Below the pieces are notes generated by a model. It made no database searches. It was not told where the DNA came from and saw only the letters and a program-made list of their open reading frames with translations. Source: Escherichia coli (GTDB lineage Bacteria > Pseudomonadota > Gammaproteobacteria > Enterobacterales > Enterobacteriaceae). From it: a DNA stretch of 64,000 bases. The translations under genes and the position numbers were made by a program. This document shows, one piece after another, positions 31,470-47,181 of the stretch. Each line of letters opens with the position of its first letter. Positions within the stretch are counted from its first letter, which is position 1. The stretch lies in NCBI RefSeq assembly GCF_003334305.1, contig NZ_QOWS01000012.1, one strand, 5' to 3'.

Positions 31470-32099
31470 ATGCTTAAGCCAGACAACCTGCCCGTTACAT
31501 TTGGCAAAAACGATGTAGAAATTATTGCACGAGAAACACTTTATCGCGGCTTTTTTTCATTAGATCTTTATAGATTTCGTCATCGTTTATTCAACGGGCA
31601 AATGAGTCATGAGGTACGGAGGGAAATTTTTGAGCGCGGTCACGCCGCAGTCTTGCTACCCTTTGACCCAGTGCGTGATGAAGTTGTGCTGATTGAGCAG
31701 ATTCGGATTGCCGCATACGACACCAGTGAAACCCCCTGGCTACTGGAGATGGTTGCCGGGATGATAGAAGAGGGTGAAAGTGTGGAAGATGTTGCCCGTC
31801 GCGAAGCGATTGAAGAGGCGGGACTGATAGTCAAACGGACCAAACCGGTGTTAAGTTTCCTGGCAAGCCCGGGGGGCACCAGTGAGCGTTCGTCAATTAT
31901 GGTGGGCGAAGTGGACGCCACGACCGCAAGCGGTATTCATGGTCTGGCTGATGAAAACGAAGATATTCGCGTTCATGTGGTAAGCCGGGAACAGGCATAC
32001 CAGTGGGTAGAAGAGGGGAAAATCGACAACGCAGCGTCGGTCATCGCTTTGCAATGGCTGCAGCTGCATCATCAAGCGTTAAAAAATGAGTGGGCATAA
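31470..32099 (+). CDS. nudF: ADP-ribose pyrophosphatase (Nudix)
   Basis: 209-aa ORF with Nudix box region EAIEEAGL. Confidence 0.9.
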
Positions 32100-42547: not shown

Positions 42548-42833
42548 GACAAAGCCTCATTTCAAGTGGTTGATACCAACTTTACATTCTTTTATTTTTA
42601 TTGCGCAGTATGCTTATTTGTTATCTGTGACATAAAACAGGAAAAACCACATTTATTAATAAATATCATGCGGTTAAGTGAAATTGGTTTTTATGTGATG
42701 CTGCTCAATATTAACTCAGTGGTTTGTTGTGGTATCTACCAATGCATTTATTCTCAATCGTAAAGTTATGTGCTGAATGAGTTCCGATACATTTGTTTTT
42801 AATATAATTTCATGTGATTAATGAGTGCTGTGT

Positions 42834-44165
42834 ATGAAACTGACAATAAATGAAAAGATAGGTTTTGGTGCCGGTGATATGGCCATTGCGATAGTAATGA
42901 TGTCTTTAGCCATGATCATCACTTATTTTTACACGGATGTATTTGGTCTGAAACCCGTCGACTTAGGTATTCTGTTATTTTCTGTACGTATTCTTGATGC
43001 TGTGATTGATCCAGTTGTGGGAACAATGACAGACATAACGAATACACGTTGGGGAAAATATCGGCCATGGTTGCTTTTTATGTCAATACCGTTTGGGATA
43101 AGCATTTGGTTGATGTTCACCACACCTGATACCGATTATTCAGTTAAGCTTTTATGGGCCTGGGCTACCTATGTGTTACTTACCTTGACCTATACGTTAA
43201 TCGCTATTCCTTATGTTTCATTAATCAGCGTTATCACGGATGATCCACAAGAGAGATTGAGCGCCAATGGTTATCGTTTTGTTATGACAAAAATTGCCAT
43301 GTTCGCCGTAACAATTATTGTTCCTTTATCTGCAATGTATCTTGGGAAGAATAACGTACAACTGGGTTATCAAATAGCAATGGGGACAATGGGTATTCTG
43401 GCAACGTGTTTATGCCTGTATTGTTTTTTTAGCGTGAGAGAGCGCATCTACCATCCAAAACCCAGTCTCGGTATGGCCGCGCAGTTTCGGTTACTGATCA
43501 AAAATGATCAATGGCTCATTTTGGGCGCTGTAATTGCGATCATTATGTTTGGCGGGATTATTCGTAACTCTGTCGCTGCATATTATGCAAAATATTACCT
43601 GAGTGGTGGGGATGCTTTAATTTCACCGTTTTTAACTTCAGGCGTGATCGCCTCAGTTCTGGCTATGATCGCTTGCACCTGGCTTACTCGTCTCTATGAC
43701 AAAATAAAAATATTTCGTTATACCCAATTACTGGCGTTCGTGGTGGGTGGTGCGATGTATTTCGTGCAACCAAATTCTATAGTGCTAGCTTTTACATTTT
43801 ATATTGTGGTGACTTTCCTGACGGATATCCAGCTTCCCATTTATTGGGCATCCATTGCTGAGTCCGTGGATTACGGTGAAATGAAAACGGGGCAACGTGT
43901 TTCTGGCCTGGCATTTGGCGGGATTCTCTTTTTCCAAAAGTTCGGTATGGGGCTGGCAGGGGGCTTTATCGGAATCGCTTTAGCCTATCTGGATTATCAA
44001 CCAGGCGTAGAACAAACACCACAGGCGCTGTGGGGGATCTGCCTGTTAATGACGATCATTCCCGCGATACTTAACCTGCTTACCGGACTCATCATGAGAT
44101 TTTATCTGATTAATAATGAATATTACGAACAGATAAAAGCACGGTTACAAACGGCGGAAGAGTGA
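42834..44165 (+). CDS. GPH-family (MelB-like) glycoside:cation symporter
   Basis: ORF from GTG 42825; ATG at 42834; 12-TM profile; D..G...D..TNTRWGKYRPW signature. Confidence 0.8.
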   Translation: MKLTINEKIGFGAGDMAIAIVMMSLAMIITYFYTDVFGLKPVDLGILLFSVRILDAVIDPVVGTMTDITNTRWGKYRPWLLFMSIPFGISIWLMFTTPDTDYSVKLLWAWATYVLLTLTYTLIAIPYVSLISVITDDPQERLSANGYRFVMTKIAMFAVTIIVPLSAMYLGKNNVQLGYQIAMGTMGILATCLCLYCFFSVRERIYHPKPSLGMAAQFRLLIKNDQWLILGAVIAIIMFGGIIRNSVAAYYAKYYLSGGDALISPFLTSGVIASVLAMIACTWLTRLYDKIKIFRYTQLLAFVVGGAMYFVQPNSIVLAFTFYIVVTFLTDIQLPIYWASIAESVDYGEMKTGQRVSGLAFGGILFFQKFGMGLAGGFIGIALAYLDYQPGVEQTPQALWGICLLMTIIPAILNLLTGLIMRFYLINNEYYEQIKARLQTAEE

Positions 44166-44208: not shown

Positions 44209-44523
44209 TTAAATCCCTGGCTGCAGAATACGAATATTCATCTCCAGCACGTCGCCTTTTACGGCTTCGCTGTACGCCTTCATGTGCGGGGTTTGCAGAT
44301 GCGCTTCAAGATGCGCGATGCTTTCCCACTGCTCAATCATCACGATAGAATCCGGTGCCATAGACTGGAAACTCACGCCAGCAGCGCAATCCACCATTGG
44401 CGCATAGCCGTGGCAACCTTCTTCTTTCAGTACGGTTGGAACGATTTTAGCAAACTGATCCAATACCGCCTGACGGTGATGTTGACCAGGACGAGTACGG
44501 ATTTCTGCGATTACGGTAAGCAT
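44209..44523 (-). CDS. ygiN: Quinol monooxygenase (ABM domain)
   Basis: 104-aa ORF; synteny with mdaB. Confidence 0.9.
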   Translation of the reverse strand: MLTVIAEIRTRPGQHHRQAVLDQFAKIVPTVLKEEGCHGYAPMVDCAAGVSFQSMAPDSIVMIEQWESIAHLEAHLQTPHMKAYSEAVKGDVLEMNIRILQPGI

Positions 44524-44553
44524 GGTTAACTCCTTCTAAAGCCTGAGCTCTAG

Positions 44554-45135
44554 TTAACCAAAAATTTCCACAAGATGCTTGCGATATTCTTCAGTATAGC
44601 GGGGAACATCAGGCATTTTTATCACGTCATTAGCGATAAATGTCGGCAGCGGTTCCATACCGAGGAATTGGTTTGCTTTATGGAACGGCAGATACACACC
44701 GTCAACGCCAACGCCGTGGAAGAACTGATCTTTTTCGGTGAAGGCTTCCATTGGTGCGTTCCAGGTTAGAGAAAGCATATATTTTTTGCCCTGTACCAGG
44801 CCGCCGGAACCGTATTTTTTCGACGGATCTTTGCGGGTACGACCATCGCTGGCATACAGTGTTCCATGACCTTCGGTGAATACATCATCAATATATTTTT
44901 TCACTGTCCACGGCGCGCCCATCCACCAGCCTGGCATCTGCCAGATCACCACATCAGCCCAGAGAAAGTTTTGTACTTCCGCTTTGACAACGTAGTCGCT
45001 GTCGGCGCGAACGATGCGGACATCATGCCCGAGGTCGCGCAGTGTGCCATCCGCGACTTCGGTCAGGGTGTCGTTCAGTTGACCATTGGAGTGGGCGAAT
45101 TTTTTCGCGCCGTTGATAATCAGGATGTTGCTCAT
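44554..45135 (-). CDS. mdaB: NADPH:quinone oxidoreductase MdaB
   Basis: 193-aa flavodoxin-like ORF, MSNILIINGAKKF N-terminus. Confidence 0.9.
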   Translation of the reverse strand: MSNILIINGAKKFAHSNGQLNDTLTEVADGTLRDLGHDVRIVRADSDYVVKAEVQNFLWADVVIWQMPGWWMGAPWTVKKYIDDVFTEGHGTLYASDGRTRKDPSKKYGSGGLVQGKKYMLSLTWNAPMEAFTEKDQFFHGVGVDGVYLPFHKANQFLGMEPLPTFIANDVIKMPDVPRYTEEYRKHLVEIFG

Positions 45136-45453
45136 TTTTTAACCTCAAGGTGAGACGTTTGTCGACTATAGTACGTCACAGAGCGGTACGGTGAAATTAG
45201 CAAAATGTGCAAAGTCTTTTGCGAATTTAGCAAAAGTCTGATCTAGCTCTGACTCACCGATGCAGGATAAATATTTTCTGAAAATGACAATACTGATAGC
45301 CATTCCTCATAATTCTTACTCGCACCGGAATAATTTACACGTTTGGTTCGGTTTTTTTTGGGATTGAAAATATGGCTTTGAATAAGTAAAAGATGAAAAT
45401 ATCAACGTGTCATGTTGATAATTATAAATGGATTTTTATGAGCGTACTGATAT

Positions 45454-45786
45454 ATGTTAAAGCATAAAATTCAAACAATATTTGAAGCTCTGTTATACAT
45501 AATGCTTACTTATTGGTTAATAGATGCTTTTTTTGCTTTCAATAAGTATGACTGGATGCTTGAGTCGGGAGGCAATATTTGCAGTATACCTTCCGTTTCA
45601 GGCGAAGATCGTATATTGCAAGCAATGATTGCAGCATTTTTTCTTCTTACGCCACTTATTATTCTTATCTTAAGAAAACTCTTTATGCGGGAAATGTTCG
45701 AGTTTTGGGTATATGTATTTTCGCTCGGTATTTGTCTGGTTTGTGGTTGGTGGCTTTTTTGGGGACGGTTTATATTTTGCTATTAG
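45454..45786 (+). CDS. ygiZ: Small inner membrane protein
   Basis: 110-aa ORF with three hydrophobic segments; synteny. Confidence 0.75.
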   Translation: MLKHKIQTIFEALLYIMLTYWLIDAFFAFNKYDWMLESGGNICSIPSVSGEDRILQAMIAAFFLLTPLIILILRKLFMREMFEFWVYVFSLGICLVCGWWLFWGRFIFCY

Positions 45787-45831
45787 TAAAATCTATGAGA
45801 GTCGTTTTAACGGCTCTCATAGACAGAGAAG

Positions 45832-47181
45832 TTACCAGCTTACCTTCGCCTCAAATCCACCTTGTTCCGCATTCCCAAATTCAACATTCATGCCATGCAA
45901 TTTGGCGATTCGCTGGACAATCGATAGCCCAAGCCCGCTGCCGGTAGCGGTTTGTCCGGGTGGGCGATAGAAGCGTTCGCCAATTCGCGCCAGAGCCTCT
46001 GGCGTCACACCGGGGCCGTTATCCCTCACGATGAAATTATCAGCATTCAGCGTGACGTCTATCACGCTGCCCTGTGGACTGTAGCGCACGGCGTTATCCA
46101 GCAAATTTCGCACCAACAAACTTAGCAATAGCGGTTGTCCGGTGCGTTTGATGCCGTGGGCATTGAGTGTCAGTCGCACGTCAATTTTCGCCTGCTGCGC
46201 CGTGTGGTAAATATCCATCACCGACGATTGGAGGAGATCTTCAAGCGGGATCTCCGCGACGTCCTGAAGGTTATCCAGTGAGTCCAGCCGCGATAGAGTG
46301 AGCAGTTGATCAACCAGACGAGTAGCGCGATCGATCCCGTAATGTAATTGAAGCAGCGCTTTTTTCCGCGCTTGCGGATCATCGTCAGAAAGCTGCGCAA
46401 CTTCGGTTTGCACTTTCAGCGCCGTTAACGGGCTACGTAGTTCGTGAGCTGCGTCGGAGGTAAAGCGTCGTTCACGAACCATCATCGCATGTGTGCGGGC
46501 GAACAGTTGATTTAGCGACTCAACCAACGGACGCACTTCGCTGGGTACGCCAGTCGCGTTTAGTGGTTTTTCCGAGTCAGGGTCACGCATACGCAGCGCC
46601 AGCGCCAGTTTGTTCAGCGGCGCGAGTTCACGACCCAATAGTACCATCATGATGATTAACATAATCGGCAGTGCGACCAGCCACGGGATCAATTGCCCGG
46701 CAACAATCGCCAGCGCCATGTCTTCACGGTATTCCCATTCCTGACCAACAACGATGCGATATTTGCCATCAGGTGAGGTCATCCAGACAAAACGCCATTG
46801 ATCTTTATCGCCCACCAGTTGCCCGTCAGCAAAACCTTCCCGTTGATAGCTATAAGGAATATCTTCTCCGTTATCGCCATCGTTAAGGACCATTCTGCCG
46901 TCGTGGGTAAAGATGGCAAAGGTCAGCGCATCGTCATCAACATGACCGTGTTTTAATTTATTTGGCGTCTGTGCCATGCGATCCGCCGCGTTGATTTCGT
47001 TGAGATCGAGCGTACTTAACCGCTTGGCAAACAGCATCAGTTGGGTGTCGAACAATTCATCGACGTTATCCGTTGTTTGTTTCCAGGCGACAAAGCTGGA
47101 AAGCAGCCAGGTCACCGAGGCCAGAATTAAAAAGATTAGCGTCAGCCTGACGCGCAGACTAAGACGTTGGGTAAATTTCAT
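45832..47181 (-). CDS. qseC: Sensor histidine kinase QseC
   Basis: 449-aa ORF; two TMs, H-box AAHELRSPL, HATPase domain. Confidence 0.9.

What the first reader, a model, noticed from the sequence alone, without database searches (positions are those of the whole stretch)
45190..45240. Direct TTAGCAAAA repeats in the mdaB-ygiZ divergent region
attagcaaaatgtgcaaagtcttttgcgaatttagcaaaagtc contains two TTAGCAAAA copies about 30 bp apart and a GCAAA-rich core, in the 318-bp gap between divergent mdaB and ygiZ. This could be a paired binding site (for example a mar/sox/rob-type box); this is a weak observation.
Basis: inference. Interest (0 to 1): 0.15.

Follow-up and report, generated by a model that had tools for sequence, protein, structure and literature searches.

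The report
mdaB promoter: marbox plus YafC-type operator
The two TTAGCAAAA copies upstream of the E. coli quinone-reductase gene mdaB belong to two different regulator sites, a mar/sox/rob box of the known kind and, next to it, a deeply conserved palindrome that is most likely the operator of the uncharacterised LysR-type regulator YafC.

Summary
The repeat is real: TTAGCAAAA lies at 45197-45205 and 45227-45235, 30 bp apart. On its own it is no more than chance.

Conservation shows that the two copies are different things. The proximal copy is the A-rich half of a forward-oriented marbox (TTTGCACATTTTGCTAATTT, 45194-45213, minus strand). It ranks 4th of 127,972 positions with a MarA ChIP-seq matrix. 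It lies 20 bp upstream of a conserved -10 (TACTAT), a class II position. mdaB is a published mar/sox/rob/RamA regulon gene, so this part is known.

The distal copy is the left arm of a dyad, CTTTTGC-N7-GCAAAAG (45216-45236), centred at about -65. The arms are near-invariant in 84 Enterobacterales and the spacer varies.
- The dyad persists where the marbox is absent.
- In the same orientation, and at the same distance from the mdaB start codon, it matches the DNase-footprinted site of the LysR regulator CrgA upstream of Neisseria meningitidis mdaB.
- E. coli YafC is the CrgA equivalog (60% identity).
- The same dyad sits in front of yafC itself, and at -65 of its neighbour dkgB.

Verdict: a known marbox plus a probable, apparently undescribed YafC operator. 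No binding was tested.

The parts
45197..45205 (+). Proximal TTAGCAAAA copy. Its reverse complement TTTTGCTAA is the RE2 (A-rich) half of the mdaB marbox.
45227..45235 (+). Distal TTAGCAAAA copy. Its reverse complement TTTTGCTAA is the left arm of the dyad plus three bases of the spacer.
   Evidence: Outside Escherichia this arm reads ATTATTGC.
45194..45213 (-). 20-bp marbox TTTGCACATTTTGCTAATTT, with the 15-bp core GCACATTTTGCTAAT at 45196-45210. It is in forward orientation and its centre is about -42 from the predicted TSS. It may double as the activation-site half of the LysR-type operator (TTTGC-N7-GCTAAT).
   Evidence: It has 2 mismatches to AYNGCACNNWNNRYYAAAYN. It scores 13.8 bits with the MarA ChIP-seq matrix, rank 4 of 127,972. 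It is listed as a predicted marbox in PMC12052159 Table S2. It is near-invariant in 80 Enterobacteriaceae.
45216..45236 (.). Dyad CTTTTGC-TAAATTC-GCAAAAG (mdaB strand), containing T-N11-A, with its centre at 45226, about -65. It is the proposed recognition site of YafC, a CrgA-type LysR regulator.
   Evidence: Arms conserved and spacer variable in 80 + 4 Enterobacterales. Matches the CrgA footprint in Neisseria. The same dyad lies at yafC and dkgB.
45168..45173 (-). Predicted -10 hexamer TACTAT of the main mdaB promoter. The -35 (TTTCAC) is poor. The predicted TSS is about 45161.
   Evidence: TAnAAT is conserved in register, 20 nt after the marbox and 42 nt after the dyad arm, across genera. 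dkgB has the same 42-nt spacing. The TSS itself is inferred and not measured.
45194..45202 (-). Possible extended -10 (TGCTAATTT) of a second, E. coli-specific start site at about 45187, embedded in the marbox.
   Evidence: A TSS at 3170500 (U00096.2) is listed in PMC12052159 Table S2. The mapping to the window is my calculation, +/-2 nt. The element is not conserved in Klebsiella or Enterobacter, which have TCATTT.
44209..45135 (-). The mdaB (44554-45135) and ygiN (44209-44523) operon controlled by these sites.
   Evidence: Co-transcription was shown in Salmonella (PMC2653508).
45240..45831 (.). Variable segment carrying ygiZ (45454-45786, +), lying between the dyad and the end of qseC. It is not part of the conserved promoter.
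   Evidence: Homology with O157:H7 stops at about 45239, and there the qseC stop codon lies 6 nt from the dyad. Another strain has an Hcp/T6SS insert here.

Best explanation
About 45 bp upstream of mdaB-ygiN carry two adjacent operators for two different regulators, on one promoter.

1. Marbox (shown by motif and conservation; regulation taken from the literature). The 20-bp forward-oriented marbox at 45194-45213 overlaps a weak -35 and lies 20 bp upstream of the -10 TACTAT. A monomer of MarA, SoxS or Rob (RamA in Salmonella) bound there would activate transcription as at class II mar/sox/rob promoters.

2. Dyad (inferred). The dyad CTTTTGC-N7-GCAAAAG at 45216-45236, centred near -65, is the recognition site of the LysR-type regulator YafC, the E. 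coli equivalog of Neisseria CrgA. As is usual for LysR-type regulators, the oligomer would hold the -65 dyad and also reach a weaker second site near -44. That second site is TTTGC-N7-GCTAAT, which is the marbox DNA. YafC and the MarA-type activators would therefore share DNA and either compete or act under different signals, such as quinones or electrophiles for YafC.

3. Origin of the repeat.

4. History (inferred). The CrgA-mdaB divergent pair seen in Neisseria was split in Enterobacterales. mdaB kept its operator, yafC kept a copy in its own leader, and a marbox was later overlaid on the activation-site region in core Enterobacteriaceae.
For: Marbox:
- Consensus hit with 2 mismatches.
- A matrix built from 32 MarA ChIP-seq sites gives 13.8 bits, rank 4 of 127,972. 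This exceeds the tolC marbox in the same window, 13.2 bits.
- 12 of 15 bases are identical to the marRAB marbox ccacgttttgctaaa.
- Papers state that mdaB is in the mar regulon and MarA-activated. A ramA knockout lowers Salmonella mdaB 3.2-fold.
- The -10 is conserved in register.

Dyad:
- The arms are near-invariant and the 7-bp spacer is free in 80 Enterobacteriaceae.
- It is retained at 89-92 nt from the ATG in Entomohabitans, Shimwellia, Tenebrionibacter and Neisseria, where the best downstream marbox score is 2.4 bits or less.
- The published 63-bp CrgA footprint, read toward mdaB in a Neisseria contig, is GATTATTTC-N7-GCAAAAGTG. The enterobacterial consensus is GATTATTGC-N7-GCAAAAGAC.
- YafC and CrgA are 60% identical without gaps and have a near-identical wHTH. 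CrgA passes the NCBIfam YafC equivalog cut-off.
- TTTTGC-N7-GCAA(A/C)A sits 17 nt before the yafC ATG in 5 of 6 genera.
- TTATTGC-N7-GCAA(A/T)AA lies upstream of yafC's neighbour dkgB in E. coli, Citrobacter, Dickeya and Franconibacter. In E. coli the 42-nt spacing to the -10 equals that at mdaB; the other three are within about 1 nt by eye.
- The exact 12-base dyad occurs nowhere else in the 411 kb held.
Against: - No binding or expression experiment for YafC was available, so the link is comparative only.
- mdaB is not among the 33 MarA ChIP-seq peaks and is not in the EcoCyc high-quality MarA list quoted in PMC12052159.
- The paper that originally defined the mdaB marbox (Martin & Rosner 2002) could not be read. 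The exact published box is therefore not confirmed.
- The TSS is predicted. The only TSSs I could find listed map to about 45187 and about 45235, not 45161.
- The Salmonella yafC locus I fetched lacks the dyad, although Salmonella mdaB keeps it.
- The distal site also scores 9.3 bits as a marbox, so some MarA, SoxS or Rob binding there is not excluded.
- YafC ChIP-exo data exist (PMC6237786), but the target lists were not readable. They could confirm this idea, contradict it, or show that it is already known.
Confidence: 0.62

Rival explanations
1. Both copies are marboxes. Two MarA, SoxS or Rob monomers would bind 21 bp apart on the same face of the DNA, one in a class II position and one in a class I-like position. 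This is the paired site the first reader proposed.
For: The distal 15-mer GCTAAATTCGCAAAA scores 9.3 bits, rank 53 of 127,972. The + strand versions score 9.4 and 10.1 bits. Both boxes are listed as predicted marboxes in PMC12052159 Table S2. The GC-N7-GC architecture is shared. The mean forward score of the distal box across genera, 9.1, is similar to that of the proximal box, 10.1.
Against: The distal score comes only from the arms. Marbox positions 3-9 are unconstrained, position 3 is A in 4 of 80, and the spacer scores no better than its own shuffles (-1.37 against -1.87 +/- 0.37). The dyad is kept in taxa with no marbox next to it, and in Neisseria, where it is a CrgA footprint. The same dyad lies in front of yafC and dkgB, and nothing I retrieved links either gene to the mar regulon.
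Confidence: 0.15
2. The distal palindrome is an RNA hairpin that terminates qseBC transcription just before mdaB.
For: In most genera the qseC stop codon lies 5-10 nt upstream. In Salmonella preB (qseC) and mdaB are not co-transcribed despite a 106-bp gap. Escherichia and Salmonella can form a 7-bp stem of -7 to -11 kcal/mol.
Against: Across 80 genera the mean MFE is -5.1 kcal/mol and the mean z is -1.0, and many fold differently. There is no proper U-tract, and the terminator scan found none. The arms are invariant rather than covarying. The dyad is retained where parC or another gene, not qseC, lies upstream, and in the window itself behind the ygiZ insert. The same dyad occurs at yafC and dkgB.
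Confidence: 0.06
3. The dyad is the binding site of QseB (PreA), which activates mdaB-ygiN together with its neighbouring operons.
For: PreA over-expression raises Salmonella mdaB 7-fold on arrays and 32-fold by qRT-PCR, and the authors propose direct binding.
Against: From general knowledge, OmpR-family regulators normally bind direct repeats, not dyads. The dyad is conserved where qseBC is not adjacent and upstream of yafC and dkgB. The PreA effect could be indirect, since the AraC-family gene STM3175 is induced 605-fold in the same experiment.
Confidence: 0.05
4. The repeat is a chance coincidence in AT-rich promoter DNA with no function beyond the single known marbox.
For: 9-mer repeats at this spacing are common: 13 observed against 7.4 expected. 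The 9-mer count is within shuffles.
Against: The arms of the distal element are near-invariant across 84 Enterobacterales and recognisable in Neisseria, while the spacer and flanks drift. All 5,426 E. coli genomes keep the 81-bp block at 95% identity or more.
Confidence: 0.05

Closest known systems
Class II mar/sox/rob (marbox) promoters of E. coli, with the marRAB marbox as the closest sequence relative
   Same: A 20-bp asymmetric box matching AYNGCACNNWNNRYYAAAYN. It is in forward orientation, overlaps a poor -35, and is centred at about -42. The gene is reported as MarA-, SoxS- and RamA-responsive. The TTAGCAAAA half is identical to that of the marRAB marbox.
   Different: It was not recovered by MarA ChIP-seq. 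The box is far more conserved than marbox degeneracy requires. It abuts, and probably overlaps, a second regulator's site.
CrgA operator in the crgA-mdaB intergenic region of Neisseria meningitidis (LysR-type regulator; 63-bp DNase footprint; PDB 3HHG)
   Same: The target gene (mdaB) is the same and the regulator is orthologous (YafC equivalog, 60% identity). The dyad sequence and orientation are the same: GATTATT(T/G)C-N7-GCAAAAG. The distance to the mdaB ATG is the same, 89 against 91 nt. A T-N11-A motif is present.
   Different: In Neisseria the regulator gene is divergent from mdaB and one intergenic region serves both genes. In Enterobacterales yafC lies elsewhere (next to dkgB at 0.23 Mb in K-12), and the dyad exists in separate copies at mdaB, yafC and dkgB. 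Neisseria has no marbox. The TTTGCAC element of its site 1 is displaced by about 9 bp.
Canonical LysR-type promoter layout (recognition site near -65 with T-N11-A, activation site near -35)
   Same: The dyad is centred at about -65 at both mdaB and dkgB, with identical 42-nt spacing to the -10. A weaker dyad-like repeat lies 21 bp downstream.
   Different: The activation-site region is occupied by a functional-looking marbox. The regulator acts in trans at mdaB. CrgA-type proteins are reported to be octamers rather than tetramers (PMC2724274).
marRAB promoter with its accessory Fis site next to the marbox (from my own knowledge: Martin & Rosner 1997)
   Same: A marbox with a second protein's site immediately upstream.
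   Different: The upstream site here does not fit the Fis consensus, by my inspection. It is a specific dyad shared with yafC and dkgB.

Membership tests
marbox (MarA/SoxS/Rob binding site), class II | Sequence match to the marbox consensus or matrix | tested here: met
   2 mismatches to the 20-bp consensus. 13.8 bits, rank 4 of 127,972 with the ChIP-seq matrix, above the median leave-one-out score of the training sites.
marbox (MarA/SoxS/Rob binding site), class II | Forward orientation, overlapping the -35, centred between -36 and -55 from the TSS | tested here: inconclusive
   The orientation is forward, and the box centre is about -42 relative to a TSS predicted from the conserved -10. The criteria are those of PMC12052159. 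The TSS is not measured, and the listed TSSs differ.
marbox (MarA/SoxS/Rob binding site), class II | The gene is activated by MarA, SoxS, Rob or RamA | not testable with these tools
   Literature only. The primary paper is not held.
marbox (MarA/SoxS/Rob binding site), class II | Activator binding to the box in vitro or in vivo | not testable with these tools
   Absent from the 33 MarA ChIP-seq peaks. No footprint could be found.
marbox, distal copy (45217-45231) | Conservation pattern that follows marbox information content (GCA at positions 1-3, T/G at positions 9-10) | tested here: not met
   Position 3 is A in 4 of 80. The spacer scores like its own shuffles.
LysR-type operator of the CrgA/YafC equivalog group | Dyad symmetry containing T-N11-A | tested here: met
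   TGC-N7-GCA lies within CTTTTGC-N7-GCAAAAG.
LysR-type operator of the CrgA/YafC equivalog group | Recognition site near -65 of the regulated promoter | tested here: met
   The centre, 45226, is 65 nt from the predicted TSS. At both mdaB and dkgB 42 nt separate the dyad arm from the conserved -10. This depends on the predicted TSS.
LysR-type operator of the CrgA/YafC equivalog group | Sequence match to an experimentally footprinted site of an orthologous regulator | tested here: met
   16 of 18 specified bases match CrgA site 2, in the same orientation toward mdaB.
LysR-type operator of the CrgA/YafC equivalog group | The genome encodes the cognate regulator | tested here: met
   YafC (b0208) is 60% identical to CrgA. 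Both pass NCBIfam NF040888. yafC itself lies outside the window, and I did not check it in the window's strain.
LysR-type operator of the CrgA/YafC equivalog group | The same motif at the regulator's own gene (autoregulation) and at adjacent genes | tested here: met
   The yafC leader has it in 5 of 6 genera, and dkgB has it in 4 of 4.
LysR-type operator of the CrgA/YafC equivalog group | Binding of YafC to the site and YafC-dependent expression | not testable with these tools
   The ChIP-exo and RNA-seq data of PMC6237786 are not held as text.
intrinsic terminator (of qseBC) | A stable GC-rich hairpin followed by a U-tract, maintained by covariation | tested here: not met

The most novel reading that the evidence does not exclude
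YafC, an orphan LysR-type regulator of E. coli, has a small conserved regulon that can be read from one dyad, TT(A/T)TTGC-N7-GCAA(A/T)A. The regulon would be mdaB-ygiN (quinone reductase and quinol monooxygenase), dkgB (aldo-keto/methylglyoxal reductase) and yafC itself. It would be the enterobacterial descendant of the Neisseria CrgA-mdaB module. In core Enterobacteriaceae a marbox evolved on top of the LysR activation site, so that two stress circuits share the same 45 bp.
Probability: 0.4. Interest if true: 0.55.

Novelty: new member of a known kind. Interest (0 to 1): 0.4.

Why it matters
The marbox part only re-finds known biology.

The dyad part would give a first sequence-based target set and a plausible role (quinone, electrophile and aldehyde detoxification) to YafC. 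A 2025 paper still calls YafC uncharacterised. A yafC allele is named, in the title of a paper listed, as raising resistance to side products of acid-treated sugarcane bagasse.

It would also explain why the mdaB control region is far more conserved than a degenerate marbox requires. It offers a simple case for studying how a MarA-type monomer and a LysR-type oligomer share one promoter. Both predictions can be tested with standard gel shifts and reporter fusions.

Tried and rejected
Literature
- Martin & Rosner 2002, Chen 2006, Martin 2008 and Shi 2016 are not held.
- A full-text search for the box sequence itself found nothing.
- Within the searchable library, no paper links YafC and mdaB beyond the CrgA structure paper and one reference list.
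- The YafC ChIP-exo supplements are not held.

Terminator idea
- The scan found no terminator, and the hairpin is weak and inconsistent across genera. Rejected.

Second-marbox idea
- Tested with a matrix and spacer shuffles. Not excluded as weak binding, but rejected as the explanation of the conservation.

Other known factors
- I compared the dyad by eye, from memory, with the motifs of many E. coli factors, including CRP/FNR, Fis, IHF, PurR, MarR, SlyA, NsrR, PmrA/QseB, sigma-54 and DnaA. None fitted in both half-site and spacing. These are recollections, not tests.

Other copies of the dyad
- A degenerate version gives 3 hits in the 64-kb window at up to 2 mismatches: the mdaB dyad itself and two divergent matches, about the number expected by chance.
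- With the exact pattern at up to 1 mismatch only the mdaB site is found, and one such hit in 64 kb is itself within chance.

More distant mdaB loci
- Acinetobacter (L089) and a Neisseriaceae bacterium (L091) show neither the dyad nor an adjacent LysR gene.

Promoter scan
- The sigma-70 scan does not report the mdaB promoter, because its -35 is poor.

Full report
**What is there**

The window is E. coli DNA. It is 100% identical to strain M8 over the queried 401-bp stretch, and that stretch is found in all 5,426 complete genomes. mdaB is at 44554-45135 (minus strand) and ygiN at 44209-44523 (minus). ygiZ is at 45454-45786 (plus) and qseC at 45832-47181 (minus).

TTAGCAAAA occurs at 45197-45205 and 45227-45235, 30 bp apart, and extends to a 13-mer with one mismatch.

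The repeat alone is not beyond chance. There are three copies of the 9-mer in 64 kb against about one expected, and 9 of 100 shuffles reach three. The window holds 13 exact 9-mer repeats at 9-40 bp spacing, against 7.4 +/- 2.7 simulated.

**Reading the mdaB strand**

On the mdaB strand the region reads AGA-CTTTTGC-TAAATTC-GCAAAAG-AC-TTTGCACATTTTGCTAATTT-CACCGTACCGCTCTGTGACG-TACTAT-AGTCGAC...ATG.

**The proximal copy is part of a marbox**

- The classical consensus AYNGCACNNWNNRYYAAAYN hits 45195-45213 (minus) with two mismatches.
- I built a matrix from the 32 MarA ChIP-seq sites of Sharma et al. 2017 that bound MarA in vitro (PMC5684230). The core GCACATTTTGCTAAT (45196-45210) scores 13.8 bits and ranks 4th of 127,972 positions in the window. 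That is above the validated tolC marbox, which also lies in this window at 31351-31365 and scores 13.2 bits.
- The core shares 12 of 15 bases with the marRAB marbox ccacgttttgctaaa.
- Trigg et al. 2025 list this sequence, and also the distal GCTAAATTCGCAAAA, as predicted marboxes at mdaB. These are pattern matches only (PMC12052159 Table S2).
- Several papers treat mdaB as a mar regulon or MarA-activated gene. A ramA knockout lowers Salmonella mdaB 3.2-fold.
- I could not read the primary paper. mdaB is not among the MarA ChIP-seq peaks, nor in the EcoCyc high-quality list quoted.

**Phylogenetic footprint**

I compared the mdaB upstream regions of 80 Enterobacteriaceae species, anchored without gaps. 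The consensus is ATTaTTGC-N7-GCAAAAGACTTTGCACATTTTGCt.ATTT-(20 nt)-TA.aAT. Four things follow.

- A -10 hexamer (TACTAT in E. coli, 45168-45173) is conserved in register. This predicts a start near 45161 and puts the marbox centre at about -42, in forward orientation and overlapping a poor -35 (TTTCAC). That is a class II geometry by the criteria. The TSS is predicted, not measured.
- The only TSSs I found listed, 3170500 and 3170452 in U00096.2, map by my arithmetic to about 45187 and about 45235. The first fits an extended -10, TGCTAATTT, inside the marbox. That element is not conserved in Klebsiella or Enterobacter.
- The distal TTAGCAAAA is not conserved as such. What is conserved is a dyad: (A)TTATTGC, then seven free bases, then GCAAAAG. 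In E. coli it lies at 45216-45236, with its centre at 45226, about -65.
- The block is much more conserved than a degenerate marbox needs. All 5,426 E. coli genomes keep 45160-45240 at 95% identity or more, and no feature is annotated there.

**Is the distal element a second marbox?**

It scores 9.3 bits, but the score comes only from the arms. Marbox position 3 is A in 4 of 80 genera. The spacer scores no better than its own shuffles. I keep this reading as a minor rival.

**Is it the qseC terminator?**

In most enterics qseC ends 5-10 nt upstream of the dyad. ygiZ is absent from O157:H7 and from the other genera examined, so it looks like an insertion within Escherichia. Salmonella preB and mdaB are not co-transcribed.

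Against this, the hairpin is weak and inconsistent, with a mean of -5 kcal/mol and z of -1. No terminator is detected. The dyad is also kept where qseC is not the upstream gene (see below).

**What the dyad most likely is**

- *Distant Enterobacterales.* In Shimwellia, the Tenebrionibacter group and Entomohabitans, mdaB-ygiN sits between parC and parE in the first two. The dyad is intact at 89-92 nt from the ATG, but the best marbox score downstream is 0.9 bits or less. The dyad is therefore independent of the marbox and more widely distributed.
- *A LysR precedent in Neisseria.* A literature search for mdaB promoters returned the Neisseria meningitidis LysR regulator CrgA. It activates the divergent mdaB gene, and its 63-bp DNase footprint is printed in PMC2724274. 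I fetched a Neisseria contig with that footprint. Read toward mdaB it is GATTATTTC-ATTTGAC-GCAAAAGTG..., against GATTATTGC-N7-GCAAAAGAC in enterics. The orientation is the same, and the distance to the ATG is 89 nt against 91 nt.
- *YafC is the CrgA equivalog.* The same paper names E. coli YafC as a 59% identical homologue. I confirmed 60% identity without gaps, a near-identical DNA-binding domain, and an E-value of 4e-113 to structure 3HHG. CrgA passes the NCBIfam equivalog model for YafC.
- *The dyad at yafC.* In E. coli K-12 the yafC leader reads TTTTGC-aacagga-GCAAAA-ATG. The same dyad sits at the same place in Citrobacter, Lelliottia, Dickeya and Franconibacter. It is missing from the one Salmonella locus I fetched.
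- *The dyad at dkgB.* A third copy, TTATTGC-N7-GCAAAAA, lies upstream of dkgB, the conserved neighbour of yafC. In E. coli 42 nt separate its arm from the -10 (CATAAT), the same as at mdaB. The Citrobacter, Dickeya and Franconibacter copies are within about 1 nt of that by eye.

**Model**

The dyad has T-N11-A, lies at -65, occurs at the regulator's own gene and its neighbour, and matches an orthologue's footprint. It therefore meets every sequence-level criterion for a LysR-type recognition site of YafC.

A weaker dyad-like repeat, TTTGC-N7-GCTAAT, lies 21 bp downstream and coincides with the marbox. dkgB and Neisseria show a related TGCA...TTTT element at about the same offset. This suggests that the marbox was built on the LysR activation site.

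How the two regulators interact is inference. They could compete, take turns, or cooperate.

**Novelty**

The marbox is known biology. I found no paper that links YafC to mdaB in E. coli, and YafC was still described as uncharacterised in 2025. ChIP-exo target lists for YafC exist that I could not read, so the link may already be recorded there.

I rate the finding as a new member of a known kind, of moderate interest. It is a good lead for assigning a function to an orphan regulator, and no new mechanism is involved.

Noticed in passing
window 31351-31365 (minus), between tolC (29784-31304, minus) and nudF (31470-32099, plus): GCACGTAACGCCAAC is the validated tolC marbox, listed as nudF<>tolC in the MarA ChIP-seq table. 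It scores 13.2 bits with the matrix. It served as an internal positive control.
   Followed up: partly
window 45240-45831; loci L002, L003, L004: ygiZ is a presence/absence polymorphism. O157:H7 has qseC ending 6 nt from the mdaB dyad and no ygiZ. Strain 0H23 carries an extra Hcp-family T6SS effector gene and a hypothetical gene between mdaB and ygiZ. About 2,100 of 5,426 E. coli genomes match less than 80% of the 401-bp query that spans this intergenic region.
   Followed up: partly
L090 560-580 (NC_000913.3 229059-229079), upstream of dkgB: A conserved dyad, TTATTGC-N7-GCAAAAA, lies 42 nt upstream of a CATAAT -10. It predicts that dkgB (methylglyoxal/aldo-keto reductase) is co-regulated with mdaB by YafC.
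   Followed up: partly
L093 (Salmonella enterica yafC locus), 1160-1203: The yafC leader dyad found in five other genera is degraded here, and the called start codon is TTG. Salmonella mdaB still keeps its dyad. Autoregulation may have been lost, or the gene start may be mis-called.
   Followed up: no
PMC2653508 (Salmonella); corresponds to the ygiV-ygiW side of qseBC, beyond window 47181: PreA (QseB) over-expression induces mdaB 7- to 32-fold and the neighbouring AraC-family gene STM3175 605-fold. If STM3175 is MarA- or Rob-like it could act on the mdaB marbox, which would make the QseB effect indirect. This was not examined.
   Followed up: no
window 45365-45373 / 45394-45402, and 45397-45423: In the ygiZ-proximal part of the gap there is a second exact 9-mer direct repeat (TGAAAATAT, spacing 29). 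There is also a 13-bp inverted repeat (AAATATCAACGTG / CATGTTGATAATT) next to a promoter-like site for ygiZ. These were not studied.
   Followed up: no
window 42825-44165 (plus) and beyond ygiN: In this strain ygiN is followed by a 446-aa transporter-like ORF rather than by parE as in K-12. O157:H7 and a soil isolate have a MurR/RpiR regulator gene there. This indicates a strain-variable island between ygiN and parE.
   Followed up: no
window 19572-19590: The third TTAGCAAAA in the window lies in two overlapping marbox-like matches (13.6 and 12.5 bits). It is inside a 354-aa ORF (19023-20087, minus), so it is probably not a regulatory site.
   Followed up: partly
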